From: Trypanosoma brucei | Lineage: Eukaryota | Assembly (NCBI GenBank): GCA_000002445.1 | Contig: CP000071.1 | Span: 1,056,001-1,120,000 of the forward strand | Direction: 5' to 3' | Length of the DNA: 64,000 nt | Shown here: in pieces, positions 22,979-64,000 of the stretch | Numbering within the stretch: the stretch's first letter is position 1 | Layout of the letters: each line of letters starts with the position of its first letter | Made by a program: the position numbers and the translations under genes | Notes under the pieces: model-generated | The model's database searches: none | Told to the model about the DNA's origin: nothing | The model's input: only the letters and a program-made list of their open reading frames with translations

Positions 22979-24937
22979 CTATGACGGGACAGGAGAGGCT
23001 TCTGATGCACGAGAGGGACTTTCCACAGTAGTGTTCATAAAGGCAAGTCGGTTTGCCACAATGTTCGATGCCATATGCCGCCGCTTAAGGGCACTCAAAA
23101 GGACGTCCCGCAGCGGTGGTGTTGCAACCTTCTCCCAGTCCACTTCGTCCCTCACTCCCCGATGCTCTTCCGTTGTCCCATCTTCATTACCCTCCTGGCA
23201 AGTTGGCGCAGTGTAATCGTCATCCATGTCTTGGTCATCGCTATACAAGCCATACGACGCGGCACGCTTCCGTCGTGGCCATGTTGGTGCAAAGAATGCC
23301 GGGAGCCACATGTGCGCAAAGGCTGCCACCAAAAACGGCATTGTGTCAAAAAATCGGCAGAACTCTTCATAACTTATGTGTGAGCGGCGCATCATGTTCA
23401 ACGGTATGACTGTTTTCTGGTGGGGTAACAAGGATGCTGCTTTAACACTCTTCCTATTCTTCCTCCCCTTTAATTGCGAGCGGATGTACGCCTGCTCTTC
23501 CTCTTGATGTAACACATCCAAGGAATCCCTTAGTGCCTTCACGATACTCGGCGACAATACGCTTTCCGGCTCCTCACAGGACTCCCGGCCGTCCCGCCGT
23601 AACTGAGTCAGGGCAGACTTGTGGATGTAATCGTCGGTCTCCAAAACACTAAAACAAAGTTTCCGAATCACATCCTTCAACTCCGCACCATTGACTAAGG
23701 CATCAAAACCAGCAAGCAGTTCACGGACATGGGCTTCTGGAGATTTCTCTCGCTGACTCGTCTCATTCACCACCGGTGCGGGGATGTTAACACCCGGAAT
23801 AGGAAATGTCTGGTTACCGCGATTACCGGCAAGCACCGGACTCATTTTGGCAACTGACATGTTCGATGAAGAGGTTTGCCCTGCTCCACTGCCCTCTATT
23901 GTGCGGTGTAATGACGCGTGGTGGAGCTGAGCTGCCTTTAGGGGGGAGAGACTTCGCACTCCACTACTAGCAGCAGCAGTGTTATGTGACGTTTCAAGAC
24001 GACCCACTGCGTTGACTCCAGACTCACTCATGGAAGATGATGGGTGGGCAACTGAGAAAAAATTCTCGGCAGCCTCATCATCCCTTACTTCGAACGGTGC
24101 TTGCCTGAGCATATCGAGAAATGCATCGAGTGTTACAATCCCACTGGAATCCGCCACGGTCAGTAGTGCTGACTGCAGAAGCCGGAGGTTCGGTGCGGGT
24201 TTTCCTTCTTCCACCACCTCTTGCTTCTTTTTCTTTTTCTTGCCACCGCGGTTCTTCCTACTTGGGGTTCCCAGCGACTGCGATCGTGCCCCGGTTCTCG
24301 TTGGGGAATTCCGCGCTGCTGCTGCTGCAGTGGCTGCCGCAACTCTTGACTGCCGCTCTTCTTCCTCCAGCTTTCGCACTAGCGCCTCCGGATTTTGCTT
24401 GTAGTAGGCTGCTATGAAGTAATCGTTAATGTCCTGCACGACCCGTCTATGGGCGAACTTGGGCAGGGATTCCAGTATCATTTTTTCCTTCGCCTTCGTC
24501 ATTGGTCCCTGTAGCACTGGTAGAGCAACCGCTTTCCCCTGTTGTTCATTAAAGCGCGAATTCGGTGGAGGAAGTCGAAATAAAGTTTTATAGTAGTCGG
24601 TCATGGAGATACGACGCTCCATCATAATCTTCCGCTGCTCTCGTTCCTTCGTCTGCTGCAGGCTCTCCCGTCGGCGCACATGCCAAAGCACACGGTCCTC
24701 TACCGCGGTGTTTCGCAGCCGTTCCACATTTGGACAGGGAGAAATGTTTGACGCCACCACACGCTCTGCCGTCGATGACATCCGCGCAGTGGAAGCCTTC
24801 GCATCCATCGAGAGAGAGGTTGCACTCCTCGTTCCAAATGTGGTTGTTGACATCTTCTCGCCTGAAAATATGCTTCCCGTACGCCCCTTGCTCTGGCGGC
24901 TTCCCTCAAGTGCATCGCTCACACCCACAGAACTCAT
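22979..24937 (-). CDS. hypothetical protein, 652 aa, Ser/Ala-rich with a poly-Lys stretch
   Basis: Long uninterrupted minus-strand ORF in the same orientation as its neighbours. Contains RGGKKKKKKQEVVEEGK, a poly-Ala run AAATAAAAARNS and a C-terminal acidic stretch YSDDQDMDDDY. No recognisable catalytic motifs. Confidence 0.6.
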   Translation of the reverse strand: MSSVGVSDALEGSRQSKGRTGSIFSGEKMSTTTFGTRSATSLSMDAKASTARMSSTAERVVASNISPCPNVERLRNTAVEDRVLWHVRRRESLQQTKEREQRKIMMERRISMTDYYKTLFRLPPPNSRFNEQQGKAVALPVLQGPMTKAKEKMILESLPKFAHRRVVQDINDYFIAAYYKQNPEALVRKLEEEERQSRVAAATAAAAARNSPTRTGARSQSLGTPSRKNRGGKKKKKKQEVVEEGKPAPNLRLLQSALLTVADSSGIVTLDAFLDMLRQAPFEVRDDEAAENFFSVAHPSSSMSESGVNAVGRLETSHNTAAASSGVRSLSPLKAAQLHHASLHRTIEGSGAGQTSSSNMSVAKMSPVLAGNRGNQTFPIPGVNIPAPVVNETSQREKSPEAHVRELLAGFDALVNGAELKDVIRKLCFSVLETDDYIHKSALTQLRRDGRESCEEPESVLSPSIVKALRDSLDVLHQEEEQAYIRSQLKGRKNRKSVKAASLLPHQKTVIPLNMMRRSHISYEEFCRFFDTMPFLVAAFAHMWLPAFFAPTWPRRKRAASYGLYSDDQDMDDDYTAPTCQEGNEDGTTEEHRGVRDEVDWEKVATPPLRDVLLSALKRRHMASNIVANRLAFMNTTVESPSRASEASPVPS

Positions 24938-26669: not shown

Positions 26670-28031
26670 CTAAAGGTAAACCACGGCCTCGCATGGGTAA
26701 CACTCGTTCACTGAATCGTAGCCTAGAGCGCACAACTCAACTTTATCAATGAATACAGGGCTCTCACATAGCGAAACATTTGCAAAACGCCGTAGAACCT
26801 CCGATGCATTAAACGGTAAATTTTTTCCGCCGCTTTGTTGTTTCCCTTCACCCGTACGCCACTTCGTGTTCATCAGCGTGACGTGAAGTAACTTACTCTC
26901 CGACACACGTGGGTCATCACATATGAGTTCCCCAAAACTGCTGTGAACGATGTCCTGCAATGCTCTAACCGTCGCGGTGGATTCCTCGTCTGCCAATCCC
27001 ATATACAACACATTTGCCTTCTGCACATGTTGACCTCGGCTAGTCATCACGTGCAGTCCACCTAAGCGAATGGGAATTCCCACACTGTCATCAGGCCCTG
27101 CTTTACCTTTATGTAGGTGTTGCTGTTGCTTCCACCCATAGATCTGGTCTTGCAGTACCTGCATACATTCTACAGCCAGTGCAACATCTTCACATGTCGG
27201 AAGGGATAACATGAGGAGGGTTAAATGCGTGCGTGGTGCACTAGTAAATATCTCCTCCGTTACACCGTTTGCAGGATCAACACAACACTGTTTCATCTCC
27301 CACAAAAGTGCCTCCGCCCTTTCGCCAAACACTTTTACCTTTCCGATGGGTAATGCAATGAAGTGAGTATACGGTTTCTTGTAGAAATGCTTTCCGACCC
27401 TCCCACCGAACGTCGAACCAACGTTTTTTTCACCGCTTTCGTGGGTTTCCACAGCATATTTCCTCTTGGAGGCGCTTCCCTCCCCTACCACCTCACGAGA
27501 ATCGGGAGCGCTGTCAACCACTTCTGCACTCGCAGACTCATTTCCGCGTGCATGACCTTCAGTGGCAAATATTCTGTAGCAACGATTCTGAGGGAAACGG
27601 ACAACACGAATGGAGGAATCATGCGATATGCCGTCATCTCTGCAATTATGAACAGGAACGACGTGCATTCCACTGGTTCCACTGACATTTTTCTTATCAA
27701 CACTGGCACCAACAGACGCCATAACAGACGGGGACACGGCAAGACAGTAACCGCAAATAAGACGGGCGTCATAACTAACCTTACCGCAAGAGTTGCAGGT
27801 CCAACCACACCCATTTGTTAGGCACTTGCAGCTCCTTTTTCCGTTGCATTCCTTCTCATTTCTTTTATTAGTGGATTCATTTGAACCGTAACGCGCCGCT
27901 AATCGGTTTCGGGCCATATTGTCGAGTGCCTTCTCACGGTGCACCCACTCCACCGCAGCCGCGCGCTCAGTGACATCGGTAGAAATCGACGAAAGAGCCC
28001 TCCACGACATATCCTCCGACTTATTATACAA
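26670..28031 (-). CDS. RanBP2-type zinc finger + 2H-phosphoesterase (LigT/AKAP18/ASCC1-like) domain protein, 453 aa
   Basis: Mid-protein GCGWTCNSCGKVSYDARLICGYC fits the ZnF_RBZ pattern W-x-C-x2-C-x3-N-x6-C-x2-C. The C-terminal half has two H-x-T-x tetrapeptides about 90 aa apart (…PRTHLTLLMLSL… and …SKLLHVTLMNTKW…), which is diagnostic of the 2H phosphoesterase superfamily, within a region with a matching beta/alpha hydrophobic pattern (HFIALPIGKVKVFGERAEALLWEM). Confidence 0.65.
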   Translation of the reverse strand: MYNKSEDMSWRALSSISTDVTERAAAVEWVHREKALDNMARNRLAARYGSNESTNKRNEKECNGKRSCKCLTNGCGWTCNSCGKVSYDARLICGYCLAVSPSVMASVGASVDKKNVSGTSGMHVVPVHNCRDDGISHDSSIRVVRFPQNRCYRIFATEGHARGNESASAEVVDSAPDSREVVGEGSASKRKYAVETHESGEKNVGSTFGGRVGKHFYKKPYTHFIALPIGKVKVFGERAEALLWEMKQCCVDPANGVTEEIFTSAPRTHLTLLMLSLPTCEDVALAVECMQVLQDQIYGWKQQQHLHKGKAGPDDSVGIPIRLGGLHVMTSRGQHVQKANVLYMGLADEESTATVRALQDIVHSSFGELICDDPRVSESKLLHVTLMNTKWRTGEGKQQSGGKNLPFNASEVLRRFANVSLCESPVFIDKVELCALGYDSVNECYPCEAVVYL

Positions 28032-29283: not shown

Positions 29284-31652
29284 ACACACACACACACACA
29301 CACGTATGCCATTGAAGAGCGTAGGAAGGAAGAGGTTGCGATGGAAGGGGCGTGTCACTAAACATGTAAAAAAAAATGGTCACCGCAGAAAAAAAAAACG
29401 ATATAGAACTCCCATTTGTAAGCCGCAATGATGGATCGATTCAGATATTGGTGATGGAAGGGTTTCGATATGGTTCTAATTGGCTGTGGGTTCCCGCCGT
29501 CTGGGAGAATCATTAGAGGGGGCATGAACATCCTCCGCCTTCTTTGTAATAGCTTTGCCGTTTTCGTCAAGAACATCACATATACGTGCCGCAGGTATCA
29601 GTAAAAACACAAGAGGAATGCTGATGAGTGGAGTGCCAAAGTGACCAAGAAGTAGAAGCCACTTCACATTACTGAAGTCGCATGGACCCACCGTAATGTC
29701 TGATTGCACATTCCATACGTATTCCATCAAAAGCCATCCAAGTGTGTTGGAAACGGAACGGCCAAAATGCGCACATCCTGCAAGTACCGCATACACCATA
29801 CTTTCAGACCCACGGGGACAGAGCCTCGAAATGAGCATTACAGTTGGCATGAAGTGCATCATGTAGCACACCTGCTGTATAATTTGGTCACCAAGAACGA
29901 ATACAACGTGATCGCTAACATACGGACGGTTCCATCGCTCCACAATGATTATATCAAAGATACTCGAAACTATCTCAATCAAAGTTGTTACGATGAATGT
30001 TAGGCGATAGCTGCGCTTTGAGAATACGTATCTGAATAACGTCACACCAATAACACCACCCATAGTCCCAATCACGTTACCCACAGTGTTGTAGTAAAAG
30101 TATGAAAAGTTAGGACCACCAGGGAAACAATCGGGGGTCGCCATGAAGACATTGTCCATTGCGCCACGAAGTTGGATGTACGTGACCCTCGAGATGAATG
30201 TGAACATATTTGCCTTCGCGATCACAAGTGGAAGGGCAACGAAACCGAGTCCACAGAGTGTAAATGACGCCACAACACTGGTTATTAGCAGCTGCAACCT
30301 TGTGCCAAGGACTGTCACGAGAACCATACCGATGGCGCCAAGTGTGAGAAGCATGCAGTAAAACACAACCTTCTTGTTGCGAGCAAACACTTCTCGATTC
30401 ACTTCAAAGGCACCACAGCAACAAGGTAGTATCCGTGCTCCGCCCTCACCCACTTCCTCGGTATCCGATGGATTGTCCAGTGAGCCACTTGTTGCTTCGC
30501 TCCCCTGTAACCTCACGGCGTCGGCTTCATGCTCCAGCTTCTTTTCGCGAATAATCTTCAGGTCGTACGCACGTTCCTCTCGGTTCTTCCGTTCACCATA
30601 CCAATTCAGTATGAAGAATATCGTCGGCACCAACTGCATCCCAGCAGAGATAAACACAGCCACTCGCTGCAACCTCTTATCGGTAAGTGGTCCTACAATG
30701 GAGGACGCAACAAGGGAGCCAACCAAAAGGCACCACCAAACCCAACTCACAAGCGATGGGCCCGCCAATGGGACGCGGCGAATCAAGCGACTGTAATGCC
30801 CTTGTGTGAGGATATCAAGGTTAGCAACTGTGAAGGTAATGACAAAAACAAGGAAGCCAGCCACCGGTACATACGACAACTCTCCGGGCAGTGAACCGTA
30901 CACAATAGCGAGGGTGGAACCCACCACACAGGATAGAGCGAGGTACCATCGCTTCGTGTACCCAAATAACGCAAAGAGGTCACTGAACATAGCTGCAAAC
31001 GGCTTCACTGCGTAACCCAACGACGACATACCACCCATCAGTTGGTAAAGCTTTGCATCAGCACCAAAGGTGTAGGTAAACATTGGAAAAAGTGAGGATC
31101 GAATGATGTTGTCAGCAATTCCTTTGCCGAAGAGCTCGCAGAAACCAAGGGCGAAAACAAACTTCGGTCCGAACGCTTCCACAGCAGTGCCGAGTACGGG
31201 AATGCTCCACACGCATGGCAGCTTTCGGAACAAGGCCCTTGCGTCAGGGTGTACAGGACGAGCATCCATTGTTTCCTCTGCAGAGAGTTTGTGAGTTGTA
31301 CACTCAGCTTCGTGAGCTTGGGGTGCGGAATGTTGAGGTGGTTGGTCCTGGCATGCGTTCGGTGACGTGGTCATTGCTGGTACTCGAATATGTTCCCACA
31401 AGTATGAATGTTTGTCACTATCGTTGCTTTGGTTTCGACTTTATCTCCAGAACAAAATGGAAGGGTTACCTTTTCGATACAGCGGGTAGAGGACAACATA
31501 GTGGCAGCACAAGAGAGCGGTTGAAGGAAAGAAATCGCAATGAACATTGAGAACGGAATCAGGCCGTCAAATAGCGCGTGAAACCACTGCAGCACTTGCT
31601 GGTACCGTACGTCAACTGGATACAAAGCGCTTTGCGGTATTGTATAATGTTA
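29284..31652 (-). repeat. tandem segmental repeat unit 1 (transporter gene plus about 190 bp of 3' flank and about 250 bp of 5' flank)
   Basis: Near-identical to 32550..35016 and 36923..39210. The 3' homology to the other units starts at the (CA)n tract at 29284. The 5' homology to unit 2 ends at …tattgtataatgtta (31652). Confidence 0.85.
29476..31401 (-). CDS. multi-pass membrane transporter, 641 aa, tandem copy 1 (I recall folate/biopterin transporter BT1 family)
   Basis: 641-aa ORF with about 12 hydrophobic segments and a large central hydrophilic loop (REKKLEHEADAVRLQGSEATSG…). 94-97% identical to the ORFs at 32840..34765 and 37216..39141. The family assignment rests on recollection that trypanosomes carry a three-gene folate/pteridine transporter cluster of this size. 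No diagnostic motif was verified. Confidence 0.8.
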   Translation of the reverse strand: MWEHIRVPAMTTSPNACQDQPPQHSAPQAHEAECTTHKLSAEETMDARPVHPDARALFRKLPCVWSIPVLGTAVEAFGPKFVFALGFCELFGKGIADNIIRSSLFPMFTYTFGADAKLYQLMGGMSSLGYAVKPFAAMFSDLFALFGYTKRWYLALSCVVGSTLAIVYGSLPGELSYVPVAGFLVFVITFTVANLDILTQGHYSRLIRRVPLAGPSLVSWVWWCLLVGSLVASSIVGPLTDKRLQRVAVFISAGMQLVPTIFFILNWYGERKNREERAYDLKIIREKKLEHEADAVRLQGSEATSGSLDNPSDTEEVGEGGARILPCCCGAFEVNREVFARNKKVVFYCMLLTLGAIGMVLVTVLGTRLQLLITSVVASFTLCGLGFVALPLVIAKANMFTFISRVTYIQLRGAMDNVFMATPDCFPGGPNFSYFYYNTVGNVIGTMGGVIGVTLFRYVFSKRSYRLTFIVTTLIEIVSSIFDIIIVERWNRPYVSDHVVFVLGDQIIQQVCYMMHFMPTVMLISRLCPRGSESMVYAVLAGCAHFGRSVSNTLGWLLMEYVWNVQSDITVGPCDFSNVKWLLLLGHFGTPLISIPLVFLLIPAARICDVLDENGKAITKKAEDVHAPSNDSPRRREPTAN

Positions 31653-32549
31653 TGCAGTATCATCAAGGCATCTACAAGATCGGAAGTCTATCTTCAGAGA
31701 CCTGTCTACATACAGTTCATGGAGGTACTTACAGTTGTTACTGCACTGCCCCGTTACACTCTCACCTTTTCGTTTACTTGGCGTACAGTAAACATGTGTC
31801 ACGCAGCCCAAGGGGCAGCCACACTTTGCGGGGCCTTCTCACCTTTTCTATTTACGTGAACATGAAAAAAAAATGGAGAAGACAGTGTGGAGGAAATACA
31901 ATGTTCTGGCAACATTTTCTCGTGTTCGTGAGGCAATATGGTGAGCACTCAATAAACAGCGATTATTGGGGTAAGACAATAAACAAAAAAATGCGTGGAA
32001 CAAACCCGTCGAGATACATCGAGTGGAGGGTAAATAAGAGGTACAAACACACATCTCCAGGTGTATAGAGAGAAATGTGTTGACGCTCCATCGGTTACCA
32101 TTGGCATCCAGCTCGAATGGAAAAAAAAAGATAGCCACAAAAAGATAGGGAAAAGAAAGACAAGGGACCACTAAATCCTTTCCATCACAAACAAAAAAGG
32201 TGTAGTCTGGAAAAAAAAATAGAAGAACACAGACGAAGTTGCGGTAACAAAATATAAAATAAGGTGCTTTCCTGACCCCAATAGGAAAACAACAACAACA
32301 TAAAGAAAAAATCCACAAACGATATAAAAAAATTTTTCACGTGATAAGAGGAGAAAACTAAAGTCACAACCAAAAAGAAAATTCATCCACCATATTTGCT
32401 TGGGGGAAAATCACATCCACACATGCGCAGAATATAGTCCACCTGCTCATAGAAGAAAAAAAAAACAGCCATAATAAAAAATAAAAACGTCTTTTCAAAA
32501 ATATAAAAAAAATAAAGTCATGGTAAATAGAATTACTTTGCTTCACGTT

Positions 32550-44891: not shown

Positions 44892-46829
44892 TTAATCACG
44901 ACTTATAGCGAAACGTAACAACTCATCTCCTGACGAAACTACGACTACGTCCTGATCGTTCGAGCTCCCATTTCGTTTCGTGCCAACCACCTCACCGCCA
45001 CCGAACTCCACCACACGTTGCAGCATCGTTTTCACCACTCCTTCCGGCATTGTCAAAAGAAACCGTTGACATCTTAACGGTGGCGGGAAGTACCGGAGTC
45101 CGCCCTCAACTTCCTCATCCAACCAGAAACCGGCACCGAGTGAATCAAACACATATGACGGCTGAACTAACCATTTTGAGGACACAACACCGCACAACGC
45201 TTTCACGCTCCGTGGGGGACCACGGAGAACAATATGTGTTGTGTTCAGCGGAAGAATTTCATCTACCTTGTTATCAACAAGGACCGCGCGCTGACCGAGT
45301 TTCTGGATCGCCTCCATCACACTGTTCCGTTCCTTTTCTGTTAGACTCGTCGTAATAAAGTAACGTGGCTGCACTGCCCCTCGCTTCGGATCGACAGGAG
45401 AAGGGGAACGAGTGGACCCTCCAACAGCAGAGGAGGCACCGCTCACTGGGCGAAACGGTCGGCGGAGTCCACGACTACTTGGAGTTGCCATCAGTGCAGA
45501 ACCGCTCGATGATGCGACGGGGGAAAGACCTCCTGTGCGTTGACGGAGCGCTACCGCGCCAGATCTCGGCTGCATTTGAACACTTTCACTTCGTTGTTGC
45601 TGGAACTGTTGCCGACTGTTGCTCACAGCTTCCACTAGAGTGCACGCAGCCGATGTATAAGAGGTTTGTGCACGCAAGATGTTGGAACCAACCGCAGGTT
45701 GATACCCCATGCCGTCGAGGCACGTCTGTTGTGCCTCCGCCGTCGGCGAATTGAGTTCCTTCTTCACCACAGGAGAACCTTTTTTGACGTATTCATCCGT
45801 TTCGGAAATCCTGTCGGCTACAGTATAGCTGGGGGTGCGGGGATTCCGCTTCTTGAGGGGTCTGGTGGGAGTCGTGGAAACAGTGCCCTCGCGCTCTCGT
45901 TTCACTGAGTGACTGTTTTTAGTGGTGACTGGTGCGGACCTGTCGTCGCTGGTGGTGGCACTCATCCACGCATTCCCATCGGGGTGTGGAAGTGTGTACG
46001 GTTGATTCGGTCCACTACCAGATGATGTTGTGGTTAATCCTCTGGTGTGATTTACAGTATTAGAAAGCGGTTGCCCTGAGGTGGTAGATACGGAATTACC
46101 CCCGCCAACATTATTGGCACAAACAGCCGTCTGGTAGTTCCTAGCGGCAGTTACCAACTCCTGTGCACTTACCAACTTCCGCACTGCGGCTTCATGCGTC
46201 TGTGTGAGGGATTTTATCTTTAATTCATAGTTTTTTTTCATCTCATGAACCTCTAAGTTATGTTGAGTTGCGTGTTTCTCTAATGCGCTCTCTTTCTCCT
46301 CAACAACCCCCTGTAGATGTCCTATCGTTCGCTTAAGTCTCGCCACTTCCTCTTCAAGATCAAGGACACGCTGCGTATCGACGACGGGTTCACTCCTCTT
46401 CCCTTGTCTCCGGTGTGATTGCTTCTCTAGTTCTTTGTAGCGAGCCATGAGCCGCTCATAACGCTCAACAGAAACGACGCCATATTTCCCTACATCGCTT
46501 TTGCTGTCACCACGCGACTGTAAGTTACTGCTTTCAGACGCAGTTGCCACTGGTGAGGGCCAGCGAGTTTGCTGACGTGGGGGTTCAACATTTAAGCCAC
46601 CTGCCATGAGAGAAGATGCTGCTCCCATATCTGTTGTAGCCGTATTTTGCAGTGTGCGCGGCTGGGGGCATAACGCAGCAATTTGTTCTAGACCCACCCC
46701 TCCAGGGCGGGCACCAGTGGCACCATCACCATGTCCAGGTGACAGAAGTGCTAAAATTCCCTGCATCTGAGTAATCAGCTGGGGATTAGATGCGAGTTGC
46801 TGTAGCACAGACAGTGGATTGTCTCCCAT
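44892..46829 (-). CDS. coiled-coil + C-terminal BRCT-domain protein, hypothetical, 645 aa
   Basis: Central heptad-repeat region (ERYERLMARYKELEKQSHRR … LEEEVARLKRTIGHLQGVVEEKESALEKHATQHNLEVHEMKKNYELKIKSLTQTHEAAVRKL). The C-terminal about 95 aa match the BRCT fold pattern: PRYFITTSLTEKERNSVMEAIQKLGQRAVLVDNKVDEILPLNTTHIVLRGPPRSVKALCGVVSSKWLVQPSYVFDSLGAGFWLDEEVE (F-x-x-S/TG…GG…THLV…K…IV…W…S…G…L-E-Y). Confidence 0.7.
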   Translation of the reverse strand: MGDNPLSVLQQLASNPQLITQMQGILALLSPGHGDGATGARPGGVGLEQIAALCPQPRTLQNTATTDMGAASSLMAGGLNVEPPRQQTRWPSPVATASESSNLQSRGDSKSDVGKYGVVSVERYERLMARYKELEKQSHRRQGKRSEPVVDTQRVLDLEEEVARLKRTIGHLQGVVEEKESALEKHATQHNLEVHEMKKNYELKIKSLTQTHEAAVRKLVSAQELVTAARNYQTAVCANNVGGGNSVSTTSGQPLSNTVNHTRGLTTTSSGSGPNQPYTLPHPDGNAWMSATTSDDRSAPVTTKNSHSVKREREGTVSTTPTRPLKKRNPRTPSYTVADRISETDEYVKKGSPVVKKELNSPTAEAQQTCLDGMGYQPAVGSNILRAQTSYTSAACTLVEAVSNSRQQFQQQRSESVQMQPRSGAVALRQRTGGLSPVASSSGSALMATPSSRGLRRPFRPVSGASSAVGGSTRSPSPVDPKRGAVQPRYFITTSLTEKERNSVMEAIQKLGQRAVLVDNKVDEILPLNTTHIVLRGPPRSVKALCGVVSSKWLVQPSYVFDSLGAGFWLDEEVEGGLRYFPPPLRCQRFLLTMPEGVVKTMLQRVVEFGGGEVVGTKRNGSSNDQDVVVVSSGDELLRFAISRD

Positions 46830-51345: not shown

Positions 51346-54300
51346 TCAGCGAGGTGACATTTTTTCCTTATCTCCTCCCTGTCGCATTCCACCATGTGGT
51401 GGTGTCCGTGGCGTTATGCTCGGTGACCTTCCAGTTGGGAGACTCGGGGGATTTTTCCCAACAATCACTAAAGGACTGCTGTTCAAATTTTTGTTGGTGC
51501 GAAGCGTCGGGCATCCGGTGGTGCCAGTTCCTCTCCGCGTCCCCACGTGCCGGCGAGGTGTCAAAGACCCGGCGCGACGGCACAAACCAACACGTCCATC
51601 CTGCACGCCGCCACCTCTTGGAGACGAGGTTGTATTGAGATGTTCTACTAATAGTGAATACCTCATTAATGCAGACCGCGTTCTTGCACAAAATTCACCA
51701 AAGTTCCACGCCCTACTCAATCTGCGCAGCGCGTTGGGTCGCCTAGGCGACCTATTCCGGCGCCGTAGATTGGCAGAAGCAACGGGTAGTGCAAACAACG
51801 ACCGCCCGTGCAAAGATCTATCGTCTTTCAAACCGTGTCCACTTCCGGAAAGTATAAACTGCGGAGAGCTGATGCATCCATCACGCCATTCCCGTGGCAT
51901 GCCCTCGCAGTTGATATCAAATAGTTCCTTCCTTAAATTTTCGCAGTGCATGCTGAAACGCCAGAAGTTGCGGTATATATTAACCAAACTTTCTGCCACA
52001 GCGGTCCCAGGTGCACCGGTATAATCGTCCCCTGTAGGACCTTGCCCATCATCCAGCCCTTCTCCTGGCTCGGTGTGCCCCTGCCGTTGAGTCCACCTAA
52101 AGGGTTGGAGATTTCTGCCGTACCTTACGCTGCTCTTTTTTGAACTCACGGACTGGCCCCATGGTGGTGGGGATACCGGTGCAGTGCTCTCCGTATCGCT
52201 CAAATGTGCCACATTCTGAACTGACTGACGTGGTTTAAACAGGGAGGACCGATCGAAGGAGGCGGACTCTGCGCCAACAAGGGCTTGCAGTTTCTCTTTC
52301 AATGCGCTCCCCGGAGCTTCCCCATCGTTCAACTGTTGGCCACAACCACCAGAAAAGGGGATCTCGGAGCGGTCCCCACCACAGGAGGGCAATCTATGCA
52401 GCGGCGGTAAGGTTACACGGTCCCGCAGGTTCCTTCCGAGCCTAGCAACTGGACCTTCACTGACTGCACCCTCGTACAGATCAATACCTGTGGATTTTGC
52501 ACTAAATAGGCCCCTACCACGAGTGTCATTGCCAACTGCACCACCAGTTGCCCTGTACATCGTATTTGTCAGCGGTGATCCAGCATTATTGTCAGCAAGT
52601 CCGCTCATTGACGACAATAGCCGCTCACTGAGCCGCAGAAGAAGCTTCGTGTCGAGAGCCATCGCAGGTTGCCCTTCATGACCAGCAACGCGGCTCTCCT
52701 GACCGGCTTCGACTGATCCAGCTGAACCATGTCGTGCCAAAGACTCCAAAGCAGCAACCTCAGATTGCAACATGGGTTGCAAAGCTGGGTAGCAGCAACA
52801 TAACGCTCTAAGGAAGTCTCCGAGGGCCTCGTGATGACTCAAGTAGTTGGCGCAAGACTGATCCCCCCCTGAGTCAGTTGTGCTTCCTGTCCCACAAAAG
52901 GGTCTGTCATCCGCAAAAACATGCTCGCGTTGGGAATGTCGTTGTTGTCGCTGCCAGAGATGCTCCGCAGGAGTTGGCAAACGTGTACCGAAGTCCTGCG
53001 ACCCGTTTGCGTCCCCTGCATGCAGCGTCCCTGGTCCGATGGGTGAAAGCCTTTTAGACCTCTCACTGGCACCTGATCCTCGAAGACTTGCGATACTAAC
53101 TTGCCACGAAGGGGAAATCCTCCCGAGTCCAGAGAGGGAAGTACCATCAACAACTAAGGACCCCTTGCTGCATGGACGCTGAAGCCGCGATCCACTCTGG
53201 GAAACTGGTCGCGACCAATCACCAGAGTTAACGGTGCCACTAGTCATGGACTGCCCCTTACCCTCGCAAGGGGAAGTGAGCCCATCGGAGAGAGTCAATT
53301 GTCCGCTCTCAGCTAACTTCAAGTTACTGGGGACGCGAAACCCTGTTTGATGAGTTGATTGAGCCTCACTATCATGTTCCCGGAATCTTATAGAATTCAC
53401 CCTCCTCAGTGGCATTATTTGCTTGTCACCTTTAGCAGCTGAAGAGCTTTCAGCGAAGTGAGTGGGTCGACTCCTTGCTGACATTGCTATCCTTTTGGGT
53501 GCTTCCGCCCAACTTTTCCGCCTCTCGCCAAGTCCATGCGCCGCTGAAGATGTTCGACTCCTATGTAGGGGCTCTGAACCCCTCGTGCCACATAACCCAC
53601 CACTAGCGAAACTACTTTTCCTACTCAGCGCCTTTTTCCCTTCCGGCACACCCTTAGTGGACGCACCACCAACGTCTTTCTCGCCCCGCCTATCAACGAA
53701 ACTTTTTTCCAACACGGACTCTCTTGCTCTATGCAACTCTCTTTGAAGCCTAGCGCATTTATCTGAGAGTTGTCCAACTCCCCAAGAAACTTTTGATGTG
53801 CTTTTTAAGAGGGCCTCATACTTTTCGTTGCATAGGGATTCCCCGTTATTCCGCGCCCCTTGAAGAAGCGTCTCAATCGCGGATATTTCACTTTGCAAGG
53901 CATCAGCCTTTGCGGCGCCCAGCGCATCAAATTGTGATGTCGCTGACTCGGTTGCTGACTCAAGTAAAAAATCATCGGCATCATCCTCTGCAGCAGGCAC
54001 ATCGTGGTATGACATTAGCGCTGACTCAAGTAACTGCACGTGATTCAAGCGTCTCCTGTTGGGACTGGTCATGGCAAGAGTAGGTTTCCTTAGACGGGAT
54101 TTTGACAATGCACCTTGTTTTCCATTTGGTGACTTCTTACCCAGCTTCCTCCTGGGACGAGGTCTGTCGAACATTACACCGTGAGTCCCGCCGTGCTCCC
54201 TTGCCACCTCCATCAAGCGTTCCTTCAACATGTGAATCTGTTGTTCCTTTTTAAGATAATTGGGTGTGTCGGGACTGTTTCCCTGGTCAGACGATGCGCT

Positions 54301-55806
54301 GGATGAACATTCCCACGGACTACGGACAAGCTCTTGAGCGGCATGCAAGCGCTCATTCTCTTCGGTGAGGGCTGTCAATGTCTGTTCGTACTCTTCTTGT
54401 TTTGTCAGCAGCTCCGAAAGCTCCCGTTGGTACGCGGCTATTGCGGCAGATTCCAACTCTTCCGTTTCATCCAACAGGGTATCCTCATACACTTCGTCAT
54501 CATCCCACACTGAGGAAAAGGTCCTAATGGTGTCCCCAAAGGAAGACTCAAGCCTTTTAGGTTTCGCGTGCGATGCCGTTTTGTCCAAGCGTTTCGATCT
54601 CAACGCAGGTCTCATGACGCTACCCACGAAATCTTTTGGAATCCCCGGTCTTTTGCGGCAGCCTCCCATACGTGAACTACAAACTGACTCATTGAATGCC
54701 ACTTTGCAACCTCTTAAAGGTGATCTCAGCGTTGCTGCTCCATCCGCCCGACCCCGTGGTGACGTGCAGCCAATCCGTGACCCCTGCTGTCTTTTATCAA
54801 GCATCAAAAAATCATCGGAGGGCTCCTCATCGTCATACTGGTCCAATGTACTACCAAATGCGGTTTTCATAATAGCGTAGTTGCCTCCGGACAACTGCTG
54901 ACCCATGTCTGCCTGCCACCTCCCAACAGCTGAGGTAAACATTTCAGTGAAGAACGCAACCACTTTGTGATCGAAACAGCGGCAGAGTGCCAAATCACAC
55001 CCGGCGTTGTACACCTCCTTCAACGTTGGGGCATGCTTTGGGAAAACAACCATTCCAGGGAGCCGGCTTTGATAGCCAGCATGCATCATAACTGTAATGG
55101 TGAGCATCATGTTAAACTGACTTTCCAGGGAACGCAGCTGACAAATGATGTCGGGTAACACCTCGTGCGTATACGCATCGATAATAACCAGATAGGGTAT
55201 TACTTCGCTCGAGAGAGAGGCAGAGGCAGTCTCGATGTTGCTCGTGGATTTCGAGGTCTCCCCTGTGTTATCCGTCGATAATTCGCACACGTCACTGTCG
55301 ATGTCACGTGAGAAAGCGAAAGTCGTGTCCTTACTCGTTATATTGCCTTCCTCCGACGAAACCTTCTGCGACTTTGTCTGGGGCTTTACCGAGGCTGCAG
55401 AATGTTGGGCCTCACGGAGGATTCTCTCGGCCTCCAGGGCTTCTTGCCTCAACGCCTCGGAAGCCTCAAAACTCGTCTGCGCCTCCAATACCCTCCAGCG
55501 ATGCATAGCTAAGTGAGAAGACATTATGGCAAGCGTAAGCACGTTGCCTGATAACACCACACACGTTGCTGTGGAACGCCGCGTCAATTTTCGCCGGGCG
55601 TTCACCAATGCATCCACCTGCATTATGCGCTCATCGGAATCTGAAATGCCGTATAACAGAACCTCCCCATCCAAGGTGCCCATAAGTGAATGCTCATAGC
55701 CTTTGCTAACCTGATTTGCGATGCGCCCGGTGTCTTCCACTCTCTTGCACAGCTGCTGTATGTACTCCAGACAAACATGTTCATCCGTACCCACTGACTC
55801 GCTCAT
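51346..55806 (-). CDS. large hypothetical protein, about 1486 aa from Met56 (longest ORF 51346..55971 is 1541 aa), Ser-rich with a coiled-coil segment
   Basis: 4.6-kb uninterrupted minus-strand ORF. The first 55 codons of the longest ORF read through a (TA)18 microsatellite (…KIHIYIYIYIYIYIL…), so I place the start at MSESVGTDEHVC (plus-strand cat at 55804-55806). Contains the coiled coil ESAAIAAYQRELSELLTKQEEYEQTLTALTEENERLHAAQEL. No named domain recognised. Confidence 0.65.
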   Translation of the reverse strand: MSESVGTDEHVCLEYIQQLCKRVEDTGRIANQVSKGYEHSLMGTLDGEVLLYGISDSDERIMQVDALVNARRKLTRRSTATCVVLSGNVLTLAIMSSHLAMHRWRVLEAQTSFEASEALRQEALEAERILREAQHSAASVKPQTKSQKVSSEEGNITSKDTTFAFSRDIDSDVCELSTDNTGETSKSTSNIETASASLSSEVIPYLVIIDAYTHEVLPDIICQLRSLESQFNMMLTITVMMHAGYQSRLPGMVVFPKHAPTLKEVYNAGCDLALCRCFDHKVVAFFTEMFTSAVGRWQADMGQQLSGGNYAIMKTAFGSTLDQYDDEEPSDDFLMLDKRQQGSRIGCTSPRGRADGAATLRSPLRGCKVAFNESVCSSRMGGCRKRPGIPKDFVGSVMRPALRSKRLDKTASHAKPKRLESSFGDTIRTFSSVWDDDEVYEDTLLDETEELESAAIAAYQRELSELLTKQEEYEQTLTALTEENERLHAAQELVRSPWECSSSASSDQGNSPDTPNYLKKEQQIHMLKERLMEVAREHGGTHGVMFDRPRPRRKLGKKSPNGKQGALSKSRLRKPTLAMTSPNRRRLNHVQLLESALMSYHDVPAAEDDADDFLLESATESATSQFDALGAAKADALQSEISAIETLLQGARNNGESLCNEKYEALLKSTSKVSWGVGQLSDKCARLQRELHRARESVLEKSFVDRRGEKDVGGASTKGVPEGKKALSRKSSFASGGLCGTRGSEPLHRSRTSSAAHGLGERRKSWAEAPKRIAMSARSRPTHFAESSSAAKGDKQIMPLRRVNSIRFREHDSEAQSTHQTGFRVPSNLKLAESGQLTLSDGLTSPCEGKGQSMTSGTVNSGDWSRPVSQSGSRLQRPCSKGSLVVDGTSLSGLGRISPSWQVSIASLRGSGASERSKRLSPIGPGTLHAGDANGSQDFGTRLPTPAEHLWQRQQRHSQREHVFADDRPFCGTGSTTDSGGDQSCANYLSHHEALGDFLRALCCCYPALQPMLQSEVAALESLARHGSAGSVEAGQESRVAGHEGQPAMALDTKLLLRLSERLLSSMSGLADNNAGSPLTNTMYRATGGAVGNDTRGRGLFSAKSTGIDLYEGAVSEGPVARLGRNLRDRVTLPPLHRLPSCGGDRSEIPFSGGCGQQLNDGEAPGSALKEKLQALVGAESASFDRSSLFKPRQSVQNVAHLSDTESTAPVSPPPWGQSVSSKKSSVRYGRNLQPFRWTQRQGHTEPGEGLDDGQGPTGDDYTGAPGTAVAESLVNIYRNFWRFSMHCENLRKELFDINCEGMPREWRDGCISSPQFILSGSGHGLKDDRSLHGRSLFALPVASANLRRRNRSPRRPNALRRLSRAWNFGEFCARTRSALMRYSLLVEHLNTTSSPRGGGVQDGRVGLCRRAGSLTPRRHVGTRRGTGTTGCPTLRTNKNLNSSPLVIVGKNPPSLPTGRSPSITPRTPPHGGMRQGGDKEKMSPR

Positions 55807-55824
55807 ATTTCCTACGGTACCACG

Positions 55825-55826
<2 letters not shown>

Positions 55827-55862
<36 letters not shown>
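55827..55862. repeat. (AT)18 microsatellite 21 nt upstream of the start codon of the 1486-aa hypothetical gene
   Basis: Perfect 36-nt dinucleotide run read directly from the sequence. Confidence 0.95.
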
Positions 55863-55866
<4 letters not shown>

Positions 55867-56355
55867 TTTTAACACCCACAAGAGGGAGAAGTTACAAGGT
55901 GACGCAGTGCAAAGCACCACGTCGATGTATTGCTGCGAACGACGGCACCTGAACTTGTCTCCAACAGGCAATGCAGCTCAATCGCGGGACAAAAGCCACA
56001 CGGTAGCGCAAGAACAGCTAAACAACCGTAGAATTTAGATGCGGAGAGAAATGTGCAAAGAAAAAAGAAGAGGTTAGAGCATAAACTAGCGTGGAAGCCA
56101 ACATTCACCAAACATAATGGCGGTACACCGTTCACAAGCGGTGTGGCACAGCAGGATAGAGAAAGGGGCACAAGAATATATGTAACCGAAAAGAGTGCAT
56201 TCGAAGAATTGGCAAGATGACGCGTCCCCTCTGTATCGCTGCTCGTCTCATGTAAATGAAACTAATTCCAAATGTGAGACGACGAACGGCCGAAGTAATG
56301 AGCGAAGCAACTCCGCTTACCCCTCCCCTCCTACTGGAATGTTAAAGATAACCAT

Positions 56356-59379: not shown

Positions 59380-60474
59380 TCAGATAGTCAGTGGGTTTCG
59401 CCACTGCGCACCACCGGGATTTTCTCCTGCTGGTGACTTACTGCGGCGTTCCCCGAGTTGTGGGGCCTCCGAGTCCGGGGCTCGACGTTCGCTTTTGGAA
59501 GCAGCCCGCTTTCCTGACGCACGGGACCGCTTGCTGTTGTTCCTCTTTTTCTCCTTATCAGCCTTCTTATTCTTCTTTTTATCTTTACTTGAAGACTTCA
59601 TGGAGGAGCTTCCTTTGGATGAGCTCCGACGGAGCGAGTCGTGGCGGCTTACATTGCTACTACCGGCAGCATCCTCGTTAAGAAAGAGGGAACCCTTTTC
59701 ATCTCCTCTCCTCCTCCTAGAAATCGCGCCGAGGCCAGCCACAATACTATACATCCAAAGCTGCTCGATGCGTGTCATAAGCAACACTAACACTATTGCT
59801 CCAAACATCCAGCCGCAGTCCGCCGCGGTTATAAAAATGTTGGAATCGATGCCAGTAAAAAAAGCCATAGACTCGTAGTAGTACATAACGGGGAGTGGGG
59901 GTCCTTTCGCCATGTCATAAGCGGCGTAAAGTGTGTAACTGACTCCAGAGGCTGAGTTGGTCATTTCACCCCCTTTACCTGCTTTCTGCGCTACATAGGC
60001 AAGAAGATGTTGTGCTGCCCACCCTGGCATAGATACAACTGCTGCCACGTAAAATTTTCCGGATCGAATACTACTATTTACCAGTCCCTCAGATGAAAAG
60101 GAACTTGTGCCCCGGCGAAACTTAAACAAACCGCTACTATTCTTATGACCGAACAGCCGGTCCAATCCCCTTTCAATATCACCGCTGGACAACGGGTACG
60201 TGTTGCCCCTCTTTTTCCCTGATTTGGTTGTGAGCCATAACTCAACATCCACGACATCAATGGCTGTGTAGAGGCAGTTGGGGAGAAGATAATCGCCAAA
60301 ACAAACACATTGGCACCGCGGGTTCTCCCTCTCCACCACGCCGTAATGGCAATCACATGTTGGCTGGGCATAAGGTCTGGGAGGTGAGAATACGAAGCCA
60401 ACGAGGCACACCATGCAAATAGCCTGAACAACAAAACAAATTTGTAGGCGTTTACCGCCACAGCATGCTTTCAT
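59380..60474 (-). CDS. type-I membrane protein, hypothetical, 364 aa: signal peptide, Cys-rich ectodomain, one TM, Ser/Lys-rich cytoplasmic tail
   Basis: N-terminal MKACCGGKRLQICFVVQAICMVCLVGFVFS (signal/anchor); CDCHYGVVERENPRCQCVCFGDYLLPNC; TM WMFGAIVLVLLMTRIEQLWMYSIVAGLGAI followed by RRRR stop-transfer; tail SSSKGSSSMKSSSKDKKKNKKADKEKKRNNSKRSRASGKRAASKSERR. Confidence 0.55.
   Translation of the reverse strand: MKACCGGKRLQICFVVQAICMVCLVGFVFSPPRPYAQPTCDCHYGVVERENPRCQCVCFGDYLLPNCLYTAIDVVDVELWLTTKSGKKRGNTYPLSSGDIERGLDRLFGHKNSSGLFKFRRGTSSFSSEGLVNSSIRSGKFYVAAVVSMPGWAAQHLLAYVAQKAGKGGEMTNSASGVSYTLYAAYDMAKGPPLPVMYYYESMAFFTGIDSNIFITAADCGWMFGAIVLVLLMTRIEQLWMYSIVAGLGAISRRRRGDEKGSLFLNEDAAGSSNVSRHDSLRRSSSKGSSSMKSSSKDKKKNKKADKEKKRNNSKRSRASGKRAASKSERRAPDSEAPQLGERRSKSPAGENPGGAQWRNPLTI

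Positions 60475-62467: not shown

Positions 62468-62501
<34 letters not shown>
62468..62501. repeat. (TA)17 microsatellite between the small TM gene and the PCD-like gene
   Basis: Perfect 34-nt run. Confidence 0.95.
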
Positions 62502-62502
<1 letters not shown>

Positions 62503-62880
62503 GCGCACCTATTAATATTAATTTATTTAAATTCACTTATGGATAAATGAGTTATTCAGAGGACACGGTTTTTCTTCTTCTGTGTGCCTGTTGGTCGTTT
62601 ATGTCACCACACTAACTATTTTTTTTTAGTGGTTGTTGGCTTTTTTATTCTATATTTTAAAAATTCTAATGTTTGTTAATTTCATCCAAAAAAAGAAGTT
62701 AAATTAAACAAATAAGGAAACACAGTACAAAAAAAAACAAAAAATAACATTCATGGAAGAGAAACGAGCAAATAACAATAGTAATGGCAATAGAAGTGTG
62801 AATATAACATTCATCCAAAACACAGACACCACGCAATCAACTGAGAAAAAAAAAGGGAAGAAACTCGTGCAAATGAATAC

Positions 62881-63690
62881 TTACGGGGATGTGCAAGAAG
62901 AAGGAGTTCCGTCATTATTATTGTTATTACCGTCTTTTGAAAGAACAGCTTCCCATGAAGTTGCTATGCCCTCTACAGTTTCCGCGAGTGGCTTCTGGCG
63001 TTCCTCCTCGCGACGCTTCAACGCTTCCGCCACACATTCACCCATCATATCCTCAATTACGGAACGTTTAACCACTCCATCAATGATTACCTTTTGTTGC
63101 CGTTTGCTTTTCTTAAACATGTTGTATTGATCGTTCAAAAAGGCGGCGAGACGAGCCTCACGTTTACTGAGACCCCGGAAAGATGGCGAATAAATATATA
63201 CCGTTATCCTCGTCCCTTCCCAAGTTACGTTTGGGTACTTGTCGCTTCCGTAACAAAAGGCCCACAGACGGCCCATGAAAAGATACGCGTCGCGAAAATT
63301 AGCGAAATCAAAATCGCGCTTTAGCGCCCCCTCACCGGTAAAAATGGTCAGTGGGGCGGGACCCATTTCTTCTTTTTCTTCTTTTCGAGCATCAGCTCCT
63401 TCAGCATCGGCATCGGCATCAACACACGGAAAACATTCATCCACCGGCACCCAACCTTTCACGCTTTTCAGAAAATCCTCCACTTCATCTTCCCGCATCC
63501 TCCGCTCATGACGGGCGTAAGAGGCCCCATGCTGAGGGTTGGAGTTGTGAAAAATGTTAAAACCATAATCCCCTTTGCAACGGCGTGTGGAAACATCACT
63601 TGTGCGGATATTTCCCAAACATCCGCGCGCAGTCGCCATACAACAGGAGCGGCGCATGTGCAAATGAGTGTGAGATGTTAGCACATTCAT
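62881..63690 (-). CDS. pterin-4a-carbinolamine dehydratase (PCD/DCoH)-fold protein with substituted catalytic histidines, about 269 aa from Met74 (longest ORF 62881..63909 is 342 aa; alternative starts at 63657 and 63639)
   Basis: C-terminal region LKRDFDFANFRDAYLFMGRLWAFCYGSDKYPNVTWEGTRITVYIYSPSFRGLSKREARLAAFLNDQY follows the PCD profile (F-x-F-x-[DN]F-x2-A-x2-FM-x2-[VL]A-x2-[AC]E-x3-HHP-x-W-x6-V-x-[IL]-x-TH-x3-GLS/T-x2-D-x2-LA-x2-[IL]). The HHP triad is replaced by KYP and the TH dyad by SP. The first 73 codons of the longest ORF cross a (TA)12 tract and are probably not coding. Confidence 0.6.
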   Translation of the reverse strand: MNVLTSHTHLHMRRSCCMATARGCLGNIRTSDVSTRRCKGDYGFNIFHNSNPQHGASYARHERRMREDEVEDFLKSVKGWVPVDECFPCVDADADAEGADARKEEKEEMGPAPLTIFTGEGALKRDFDFANFRDAYLFMGRLWAFCYGSDKYPNVTWEGTRITVYIYSPSFRGLSKREARLAAFLNDQYNMFKKSKRQQKVIIDGVVKRSVIEDMMGECVAEALKRREEERQKPLAETVEGIATSWEAVLSKDGNNNNNDGTPSSCTSP

Positions 63691-64000
63691 AACGCGATTA
63701 AAAGCACTGTACCTAAGCAACTTTTTCTTTTGATGTGGGCTCTGTACAAAGCGCCCTTTCGTTCCCGACGAGAGCACATGAAATAAGACGAAGAAAGAAG
63801 CTGTGTGGTTAAACTGGAAAGGCACTTGAGTATCATATATATATATATATATATATAAAGACACACACACGCCCTGCAAACGTGTAAGTTGACGAAAACC
63901 ACGACTCAAAACTTCGTCCCTGTTTGGTAGTATTAATAACTTTTTTTTTTAAACGTGCATCAAGGGAAATATTTGAACCCGCGCGCACTCTGGCACCTCG

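What the first reader, a model, noticed from the sequence alone, without database searches (positions are those of the whole stretch)
62881..63690. PCD/DCoH-fold protein with all catalytic histidines substituted
The C-terminal 70 residues track the pterin-4a-carbinolamine dehydratase profile almost position by position. The HHP catalytic triad is KYP, and the downstream TH is SP. This is a pseudo-enzyme version of a fold that in animals doubles as the DCoH dimerisation cofactor. It sits two genes from a transporter array that is possibly for pteridine or folate. If that family call is right, this is an intriguing functional neighbourhood: a pterin-binding but non-catalytic module.
Basis: partly seen in the sequence, partly recalled or inferred. 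Interest (0 to 1): 0.5.

Follow-up and report, generated by a model that had tools for sequence, protein, structure and literature searches.

The report
Mitochondrial dead pterin-dehydratase-fold protein of trypanosomes
This Trypanosoma brucei gene (by position Tb927.8.3740) encodes a protein that keeps the pterin-dehydratase (PCD/DCoH) fold but has lost every catalytic residue in all relatives found. It carries a mitochondrial import signal and most likely works by binding a partner, not as the enzyme that databases name it.

Summary

These substitutions are fixed in all 57 to 68 orthologues examined, so this is neither a sequencing variant nor a decaying gene.

- The PCD domain is residues 62-194, split by a 34-residue acidic insert. 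It is not the C-terminal 70 residues.
- The BT1 folate/biopterin transporter array lies 23.7 kb and nine large ORFs away, not two genes.

The family is small and sharply bounded: 23 representatives among 1.84 billion proteins. Members have basic N-terminal presequences of mitochondrial type, a near-invariant but disordered motif at the mature N-terminus, and C-terminal helices. No member occurs in any solved structure.

T. brucei also has a separately annotated 14-kDa PCD, Tb927.11.7040. I could not retrieve its sequence.

Best reading: a mitochondrial, non-catalytic binding module derived from PCD. Its partner is unknown. A role as a "prozyme" partner of the canonical PCD, or a repurposed pocket, remains open. 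The result is moderately interesting, as a new variant of the known PCD-like pseudoenzymes.

The parts
62881..63690 (-). Complete coding sequence, 269 codons plus the stop at 62881-62883. By position this is Tb927.8.3740.
   Evidence: It is 99% identical to a T. b. equiperdum protein. In that genome the gene lies between a Nop-domain gene and a COPI_assoc gene. Nop56 is Tb927.8.3750 (papers) and IDH is Tb927.8.3690, so the gene order in the window fits the identifier.
63577..63690 (-). Residues 1-38: predicted mitochondrial presequence, variable, basic and almost free of acidic residues. An alternative start at M12 (ATG 63655-63657) would give an 'MRR...' N-terminus like many orthologues.
   Evidence: across 54 orthologues the pre-motif segments hold 291 basic and 36 acidic residues in 2105. 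A basic residue (R or K) sits at -2 in 37 of 54 and at -3 in 28 of 54. Divergent members start MLRR/MFRR plus 5 residues. Tb927.8.3740 is listed as TargetP-positive in Peikert 2017 Suppl. Data 2.
63493..63576 (-). Residues 39-66: near-invariant motif at the mature N-terminus, KGDYGFN(V/I)FHNSNPQHG(G/A)SYARHERRMR. It is predicted disordered in isolation and is the candidate partner-binding segment.
   Evidence: Conservation in A1, A2 and A5. pLDDT is about 50 with both 23-sequence and 68-sequence alignments.
63439..63492 (-). Residues 67-84: first helix and first strand of the PCD fold (EDEVEDFLKSVKGW).
   Evidence: hhalign aligns residues 62-84 with the N-terminal L..L..GW segment of canonical PCDs. 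pLDDT is 89-95.
63337..63438 (-). Residues 85-118: acidic, low-complexity insert within the PCD domain. Its length varies among trypanosomatids and it is absent from the short, divergent members.
   Evidence: Alignments A1 and A3. pLDDT is about 57-63.
63109..63336 (-). Residues 119-194: core of the PCD/DCoH domain (strand, helix, two strands, helix).
63232..63240 (-). K151-Y152-P153, in place of the catalytic H-H-P.
   Evidence: Column counts: K in 55 and R in 2; Y in 56 and C in 1; P in all 57.
63184..63189 (-). S168-P169, in place of T-H (the third catalytic His).
   Evidence: Column counts: S in all 57; P in 52, A in 2, G in 2, S in 1.
63157..63159 (-). E178, in place of the conserved Asp of the PCD motif.
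   Evidence: E in all 57 sequences.
62884..63108 (-). Residues 195-269: C-terminal extension. It continues the last PCD helix, adds a second long helix (211-232), and includes a conserved P-L-x-E...W motif. The tail is variable and N/S-rich.
   Evidence: Secondary structure and pLDDT. Conservation. The extension is absent from the 166-aa members.

Best explanation
The gene encodes a nuclear-encoded protein that is probably imported into the mitochondrial matrix. Its core is a PCD/DCoH domain that has lost the pterin-4a-carbinolamine dehydratase active site.

This protein family is distinct and, as far as named members show, restricted to kinetoplastids and unnamed environmental relatives. I propose that the domain no longer dehydrates pterins and instead works as a binding module. 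The remodelled former pocket (D-K-Y-P, Y-S-P-S-F-R-G, E-A-R), the almost fully conserved first helix, the near-invariant disordered N-terminal motif and the C-terminal helices would hold an unidentified mitochondrial partner. This resembles how DCoH clamps HNF1 helices and how the PCD-like RAF2/acRAF proteins chaperone RuBisCO.

Shown here: the fold, the loss of all catalytic residues, their fixation across the family, strong purifying selection, the presequence-like N-termini, and absence from solved complexes.

Inferred: mitochondrial matrix location, loss of activity, a binding role, and the existence of a partner.
For: - Loss of the enzyme signature. K/Y/P/E replace H/H/H/D in all members. 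The NCBIfam equivalog models for the enzyme give at most 30 bits against cut-offs of 80-146. A canonical control, P0091, passes NF002018 with 130.5 bits against 108, and scores 109 bits on Pfam.
- Selection. 12 to 28 invariant columns, depending on the alignment, across sequences down to 34% identity. The former pocket is among the best-conserved stretches.
- A discrete family. 23 representatives at E below 1e-30, two intermediates, then canonical PCDs only at E of 1e-7 or weaker, among 1.84 billion proteins.
- Mitochondrial targeting. Presequence statistics and MLRR/MFRR starts. Tb927.8.3740 is TargetP-positive and in the mitochondrial reference set of Peikert 2017. The Leptomonas orthologue is named 'putative mitochondrial'.
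- Disordered but invariant N-terminal motif. pLDDT is about 50 in two runs. This is typical of a segment that folds on a partner.
Against: - No partner, localisation image, knock-down phenotype or interaction data were found. Tb927.8.3740 is absent from the held supplements of TrypTag, two T. brucei complex maps and a kDNA-loss proteome.
- In Peikert 2017 it is listed as mitochondrial only through annotation and TargetP, not through proteomics.
- No relative occurs in any solved trypanosome or Euglena mitochondrial complex. If it belongs to a large complex, that complex has not been solved or the protein binds only transiently.
- The very strong conservation of the former pocket would fit a new ligand-binding or catalytic site equally well.
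- Loss of activity is inferred from sequence alone.
Confidence: 0.5

Rival explanations
1. Prozyme. The dead paralogue forms a heteromer with the canonical 14-kDa mitochondrial PCD (Tb927.11.7040) and activates, stabilises or regulates it. Trypanosomatid AdoMetDC, deoxyhypusine synthase and PRMT1 use inactive paralogues in this way.
For: T. brucei has a second, separately annotated PCD: Tb927.11.7040, 14.2 kDa, in the mitochondrial proteome and TargetP-positive. L. major likewise has LmjF.11.0220 in addition to the chromosome-10 orthologue of this gene. PCD/DCoH proteins are obligate dimers or tetramers (established knowledge; oligomeric PDB entries). Prozyme pairs are a recurrent theme in trypanosomatids (established knowledge).
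Against: I could not retrieve the sequence of Tb927.11.7040, so neither its catalytic motif nor its compatibility as a partner was checked. The two proteins would share only about 20-25% identity, if Tb927.11.7040 resembles other canonical PCDs. That is far more diverged than known prozyme pairs. The extra N- and C-terminal conserved segments point to a partner other than a 100-residue PCD.
Confidence: 0.15
2. Repurposed pocket. The remodelled site (Asp150, Lys151, Tyr152, Ser168, Glu178, Arg180) binds a small molecule, possibly still a pterin or a folate, or catalyses a different reaction.
For: The former active-site stretches are among the most conserved parts of the protein. They hold a constellation of ionisable residues that a purely structural role would not require. 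Trypanosomatids have an unexplained essential need for unconjugated pterin (PMC12327612 and PMC3060496).
Against: All three pterin-ligating His residues are gone, and one is replaced by Pro. No conserved genomic link to pterin or folate genes exists. Binding could not be modelled with the tools available.
Confidence: 0.2
3. It is a genuine 4a-hydroxytetrahydrobiopterin dehydratase (EC 4.2.1.96), as UniProt and several genome annotations name it.
For: Source names. The Pfam match is above threshold.
Against: All motif residues are replaced in every member. Equivalog models fall far below their cut-offs. From memory of Naponelli et al. 2008 (not held; cited), COG2154 proteins that lack the motif had no PCD activity.
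Confidence: 0.03
4. Sequencing variant or decaying pseudogene.
For: None beyond the loss of catalytic residues.
Against: The ORF is intact. The same substitutions and 12 to 28 invariant columns recur across 57 to 68 orthologues, from Trypanosoma and Leishmania to distant environmental relatives.
Confidence: 0.01

Closest known systems
Canonical pterin-4a-carbinolamine dehydratase / DCoH (PCBD1, PCBD2, PhhB; Pfam PF01329)
   Different: Only about 25% identity. Canonical PCDs from bacteria and protists are 52-66% identical to a canonical protist query. All catalytic residues are replaced. The protein also has a presequence, a conserved N-terminal motif, a 34-residue insert and a 75-residue helical tail. 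HNF1, the partner of DCoH, is restricted to animals (knowledge).
PCD-like RuBisCO assembly factors RAF2 (plants) and acRAF (alpha-carboxysome, PDB 4low)
   Different: 17% identity, a different substitution pattern and different extensions. The compartment and client differ too, because trypanosomes have no RuBisCO or plastid. This looks like an independent loss of activity, not membership of that family.
Tb927.11.7040 / LmjF.11.0220, the annotated 14-kDa trypanosomatid PCD
   Same: Same genome, same Pfam family by annotation, and also mitochondrial by proteomics and TargetP.
   Different: It is a separate locus on chromosome 11 and of minimal PCD size. It is presumably the gene behind the literature statement that T. 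brucei 'possesses PCD'. Its sequence was not obtained here.
Trypanosomatid prozymes (AdoMetDC prozyme, DHS and PRMT1 inactive paralogues)
   Same: A catalytically dead paralogue of an enzyme, kept under selection in kinetoplastids.
   Different: No evidence of a heteromer or of activation. Divergence from the active paralogue is much greater. This is an analogy from knowledge only.

Membership tests
PCD/DCoH superfamily (Pfam PF01329, DCoH-like fold) | Profile match above the curated Pfam threshold | tested here: met
   34.3 bits against a gathering score of 26. Orthologues score 36-50 bits. hhalign gives 98.3% probability.
PCD/DCoH superfamily (Pfam PF01329, DCoH-like fold) | Two-layer alpha/beta PCD fold that superposes on solved members | tested here: met
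Active pterin-4a-carbinolamine dehydratase (EC 4.2.1.96) | Catalytic His61/His62/His79 and Asp88 (rat/human numbering). The motif is [EDKH]-x3-H-[HN]-[PCS]-x5,6-[YWF]-x9-[HW]-x8,15-D (Naponelli 2008, from memory). | tested here: not met
   The protein reads Y147...K151-Y152-P153...G159...P169...E178. Column counts over 57 orthologues show no His at any of the three positions.
Active pterin-4a-carbinolamine dehydratase (EC 4.2.1.96) | Score above the curated cut-off of an NCBIfam equivalog model | tested here: not met
   The best is NF002018 at 30.2 bits against a cut-off of 108. The canonical control P0091 scores 130.5.
Active pterin-4a-carbinolamine dehydratase (EC 4.2.1.96) | Dehydratase activity, or complementation of a phhB-dependent strain | not testable with these tools
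   Needs recombinant protein or a genetic assay.
DCoH transcriptional co-activator | Binds the HNF1 dimerisation domain in the nucleus or cytosol | not tested
   HNF1 is restricted to animals (knowledge). The N-terminus looks like a mitochondrial presequence.
RAF2/acRAF RuBisCO assembly factors | PCD-like domain lacking catalytic residues | tested here: met
   This is a shared property, not shared ancestry: 17% identity to 4low.
RAF2/acRAF RuBisCO assembly factors | Association with RuBisCO in a plastid, carboxysome or cso-operon context | tested here: not met
   The host is Trypanosoma brucei, which has no RuBisCO (knowledge). The neighbouring genes are Nop56 and a COPI-associated protein.
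Trypanosomatid prozyme pairs | An active paralogue is present in the same genome and compartment | tested here: inconclusive
   Tb927.11.7040 is annotated as PCD and mitochondrial. Its sequence and motif could not be retrieved.
Trypanosomatid prozyme pairs | Heteromer with the active paralogue, and activation of it | not testable with these tools
   Needs co-purification or multimer modelling with a sequence I could not obtain.

The most novel reading that the evidence does not exclude
This family is a new, ancient mitochondrial component of euglenozoans. A pterin dehydratase would have been converted into one of two things. One is a regulatory 'prozyme' of the canonical mitochondrial PCD. The other is a sensor or enzyme with a new K/Y/E/R pocket. 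Either would link it to the long-unexplained essential requirement of trypanosomatids for unconjugated pterin, the 'metabolite Y' problem of Ong et al. 2011 and the 2025 PLoS NTD paper.
Probability: 0.12. Interest if true: 0.7.

Novelty: new variant of a known kind. Interest (0 to 1): 0.4.

Why it matters
- Annotation. UniProt and several genome projects name every member of this family '4a-hydroxytetrahydrobiopterin dehydratase'. With no catalytic residue left, that EC assignment is almost certainly wrong and should not feed metabolic reconstructions of trypanosomatid pterin metabolism.

- Pterin biology. Papers argue that retention of PCD in T. brucei, which lacks phenylalanine hydroxylase and QDPR, implies an unknown pterin-dependent oxygenase. 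T. brucei has two PF01329 genes, and only the 14-kDa Tb927.11.7040 can carry that argument. The second gene is a dead paralogue whose relation to the first is untested.

- Evolution of pseudoenzymes. This would be another independent case, after DCoH and RAF2/acRAF, of the PCD fold being recruited for a non-catalytic role. Here it happens in mitochondria, and with an unusually conserved disordered motif. That makes it a tractable candidate for partner discovery in a parasite with good genetics.

Tried and rejected
- Tried to retrieve the canonical T. brucei or Leishmania PCD sequence, to compare motifs and test the prozyme idea. The family-profile word search returned only family members. The exhaustive HMM search gave unnamed canonical PCDs. 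A search seeded with the best of these, P0091, returned 7,935 canonical clusters and none named as kinetoplastid. P0091 is 14.55 kDa, against 14.24 kDa reported for Tb927.11.7040, so it is not that protein.
- Cluster look-ups gave no organism names for the environmental members. The claim that the family is 'Euglenozoa-wide' therefore rests on MLRR/MFRR presequences and on one-directional gene arrays, not on taxonomy.
- Literature. No full-text hit for Tb927.8.3740. Nothing in the held supplements of TrypTag, Gazestani 2016, Crozier 2017 or the 2026 kDNA-loss proteome. Lye 2011, Naponelli 2008 and Vickers & Beverley 2011 are not held.
- The AFDB Foldseek library was unavailable.
- A deeper alignment did not make AlphaFold dock the N-terminal motif.
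- Rejected the idea that the protein is a subunit of a solved mitochondrial complex (mitoribosome and its assembly intermediates, ATP synthase, respiratory complexes, RESC). Neither the sequence nor the family profile matches any PDB chain other than canonical PCD/DCoH.
- Rejected the functional-neighbourhood idea with the BT1 transporters.

Full report
**What is at the coordinates.** The window is Trypanosoma brucei chromosome 8. Its ORFs include glycerol-3-phosphate dehydrogenase, a PIF1-type helicase, BCS1, three BT1 transporters, Sec24, isocitrate dehydrogenase, an RNase_T protein and a COPI-associated protein. This gene order matches identifiers quoted in Peikert 2017 Suppl. Data 2: PIF5 is Tb927.8.3560, BCS1 is Tb927.8.3580 and IDH is Tb927.8.3690. 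The finding is a minus-strand ORF, 62881-63690. Its first in-frame ATG is at 63690, preceded by a polypyrimidine tract and AG dinucleotides. It encodes 269 aa and is 99% identical to a T. b. equiperdum protein. In that genome it lies between a Nop-domain gene and the COPI_assoc gene. Nop56 is Tb927.8.3750 (papers). By position the gene is therefore Tb927.8.3740, listed as 'hypothetical protein, conserved' and TargetP-positive in the mitochondrial reference set.

**Checking the observation.** The protein matches Pfam PF01329 at 34.3 bits, above the cut-off of 26, over residues 120-187. Against PDB sequences the best hits are Toxoplasma PCD and DCoH. In the Toxoplasma alignment the canonical 'dhhpn' lies opposite 'dkypn', and the Thr-His of 'sthd' opposite the Ser-Pro of 'yspsf'. 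A profile of 57 family members against a profile of 13 canonical PCDs gives 98.3% probability and E 1.1e-14. It extends the match to residues 62-194, with a 34-residue insert.

**Are the substitutions conserved?** Word-indexed searches found 71 relatives with E below 1e-42. These include Trypanosoma, Leishmania, Leptomonas, Phytomonas, Angomonas, Strigomonas, Novymonas, Porcisia and many unnamed transcriptome or metagenome sequences. After them comes a gap. In 57 aligned sequences:
- His61 is K in 55 and R in 2.
- His62 is Y in 56 and C in 1.
- His79 is P in 52, A in 2, G in 2 and S in 1.
- Asp88 is E in all 57.

The most divergent members, at 34-45% identity, show the same pattern.

An exhaustive HMM scan of 1.84 billion representatives found 23 family representatives at E below 1e-30. 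It also found two intermediates, P0088 and P0089, which also lack the histidines. Canonical PCDs appeared only at E of 1e-7 or weaker. Canonical PCDs are very uniform: the listed best hits are 52-66% identical to a canonical protist query, among 7,935 matching clusters. A canonical control scores 109 bits on Pfam and passes the NCBIfam enzyme equivalog, whereas this protein gets 30 bits against a cut-off of 108. The family therefore belongs to the PCD superfamily but fails every testable criterion for the enzyme.

1. *Presequence.* The N-termini ahead of a conserved Lys-Gly-Asp are variable in sequence and length (4-87 residues). They are strongly basic (291 basic against 36 acidic residues in 2,105), with a basic residue (R or K) at -2 in 37 of 54 sequences. 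Divergent members begin MLRR or MFRR followed by about five residues. This is the classic short mitochondrial presequence of kinetoplastids (knowledge).
2. *N-terminal motif.* The mature N-terminus is a near-invariant 28-residue motif, KGDYGFNVFHNSNPQHGGSYARHERRMR. AlphaFold leaves it disordered at pLDDT about 50, even with 68 sequences.
3. *First helix and former pocket.* The first PCD helix is conserved on nearly all positions (AYLFMGRLWAFCYGSD). The former pocket (DKYP, YSPSFRGLSKREAR) is among the best-conserved stretches.
4. *C-terminal extension.* The last helix is extended and followed by a second long helix and a P-L-x-E...W motif.

**Mechanism.** The residues known to bind and dehydrate the pterin are all gone, one of them replaced by proline. 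PCD activity is therefore very unlikely (inference from the motif; the activity data in Naponelli 2008 are recalled from memory, and the reference is only cited). Strong purifying selection on surface-forming segments and on a disordered motif argues for a binding function. Precedents are DCoH, which binds HNF1, and the PCD-like RuBisCO assembly factors, whose structure 4low is the third-best structural match. I therefore favour a mitochondrial, non-catalytic adaptor or assembly factor (confidence 0.5).

The partner is unknown. Neither the sequence nor the family profile matches any chain in the PDB other than canonical PCD/DCoH. So it is not a modelled subunit of the solved trypanosome or Euglena mitochondrial machines.

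There are two live rivals:
- *Prozyme partner.* It could pair with the separately annotated 14-kDa mitochondrial PCD Tb927.11.7040 (the L. major counterpart is LmjF.11.0220). This could not be tested because that sequence was not retrievable.
- *Repurposed pocket.* The K/Y/E/R pocket could bind a small molecule.

**Neighbourhood.** The L. major orthologue lies on the 570,865-bp record FR796406.1, which I take from memory to be chromosome 10. It keeps the downstream COPI_assoc and RNase_T neighbours, but no BT1 gene lies within 10 kb. A distant member sits on a 20.7-kb environmental contig among unrelated genes, most of them on one strand. Trypanosomatid gene order does not reflect function (knowledge). 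The proposed pterin neighbourhood is therefore incidental synteny.

**Relation to the literature.** Ong et al. 2011 state that T. brucei possesses PCD while lacking PAH and QDPR, and infer unknown hydroxylations. The 2025 PLoS NTD paper keeps PCD in the trypanosomatid pterin cycle. T. brucei has two PF01329 genes, and the one in this window cannot support that inference. No paper mentioning Tb927.8.3740 in its text was found. Four proteomic or localisation supplements held no entry for it.

**Verdict.** This is a real, conserved and uncharacterised pseudoenzyme, a new variant within the known class of PCD-like non-enzymes. It has a probable mitochondrial location and an unknown partner. It is useful as an annotation correction and as a defined experimental target, and is not a major surprise. 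Interest 0.4.

Noticed in passing
window 29476-39141 (minus strand): Three tandem 641-aa BT1 folate/biopterin transporter genes (PF03092, E about 1e-158 each). A JAB/MPN-domain gene (35084-36247) sits between the second and third copies.
   Followed up: partly
P0090 (from; sequence): A 554-aa environmental protein with a signal-peptide-like N-terminus, four tandem PCD domains and a C-terminal hydrophobic anchor. The domains keep N-H-H-P-E-W but have T-T-D-D in place of T-H-D. Tandem, apparently secreted or membrane-anchored PCD repeats are unusual.
   Followed up: no
P0088 and P0089: Two divergent intermediates between this family and canonical PCDs (E 3.7e-17 and 1.3e-13). They read T-F-P or T-Y-P instead of K-Y-P, and P0088 starts with MLRR. 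Their organisms are unknown. They may mark the root of the family.
   Followed up: partly
Names: UniProt names essentially all members '4a-hydroxytetrahydrobiopterin dehydratase', whereas GenBank and TriTrypDB records alternate between that name and 'hypothetical protein'. This looks like systematic over-annotation from the Pfam hit.
   Followed up: yes
window 3272-6304, 22979-24937, 44892-46829, 51346-55971, 59380-60474 (all minus strand): Five long ORFs (1010, 652, 645, 1541 and 364 aa) have no Pfam match at E of 1e-3 or better. They are probably kinetoplastid-specific proteins.
   Followed up: no
window 63826-63858 and 62478-62512: (TA)n and (GT)n microsatellites in the intergenic regions flanking the gene. 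These are typical trypanosome intergenic sequence and produce spurious 'YIYIYI' ORFs on both strands.
   Followed up: no
window 26670-28031 (minus strand): A 453-aa protein with an AKAP7 2'-5' RNA ligase-like (2H phosphoesterase) domain (PF10469, E 1e-20).
   Followed up: no
L003 4787-9907 (metagenome contig ERZ21831265 ctg67574l): Three tandem 91-aa dynein light chain genes lie directly upstream of a distant family member, P0069. The 425-aa gene call for P0069 has a long, low-complexity N-terminal extension that is probably a mis-called start.
   Followed up: no
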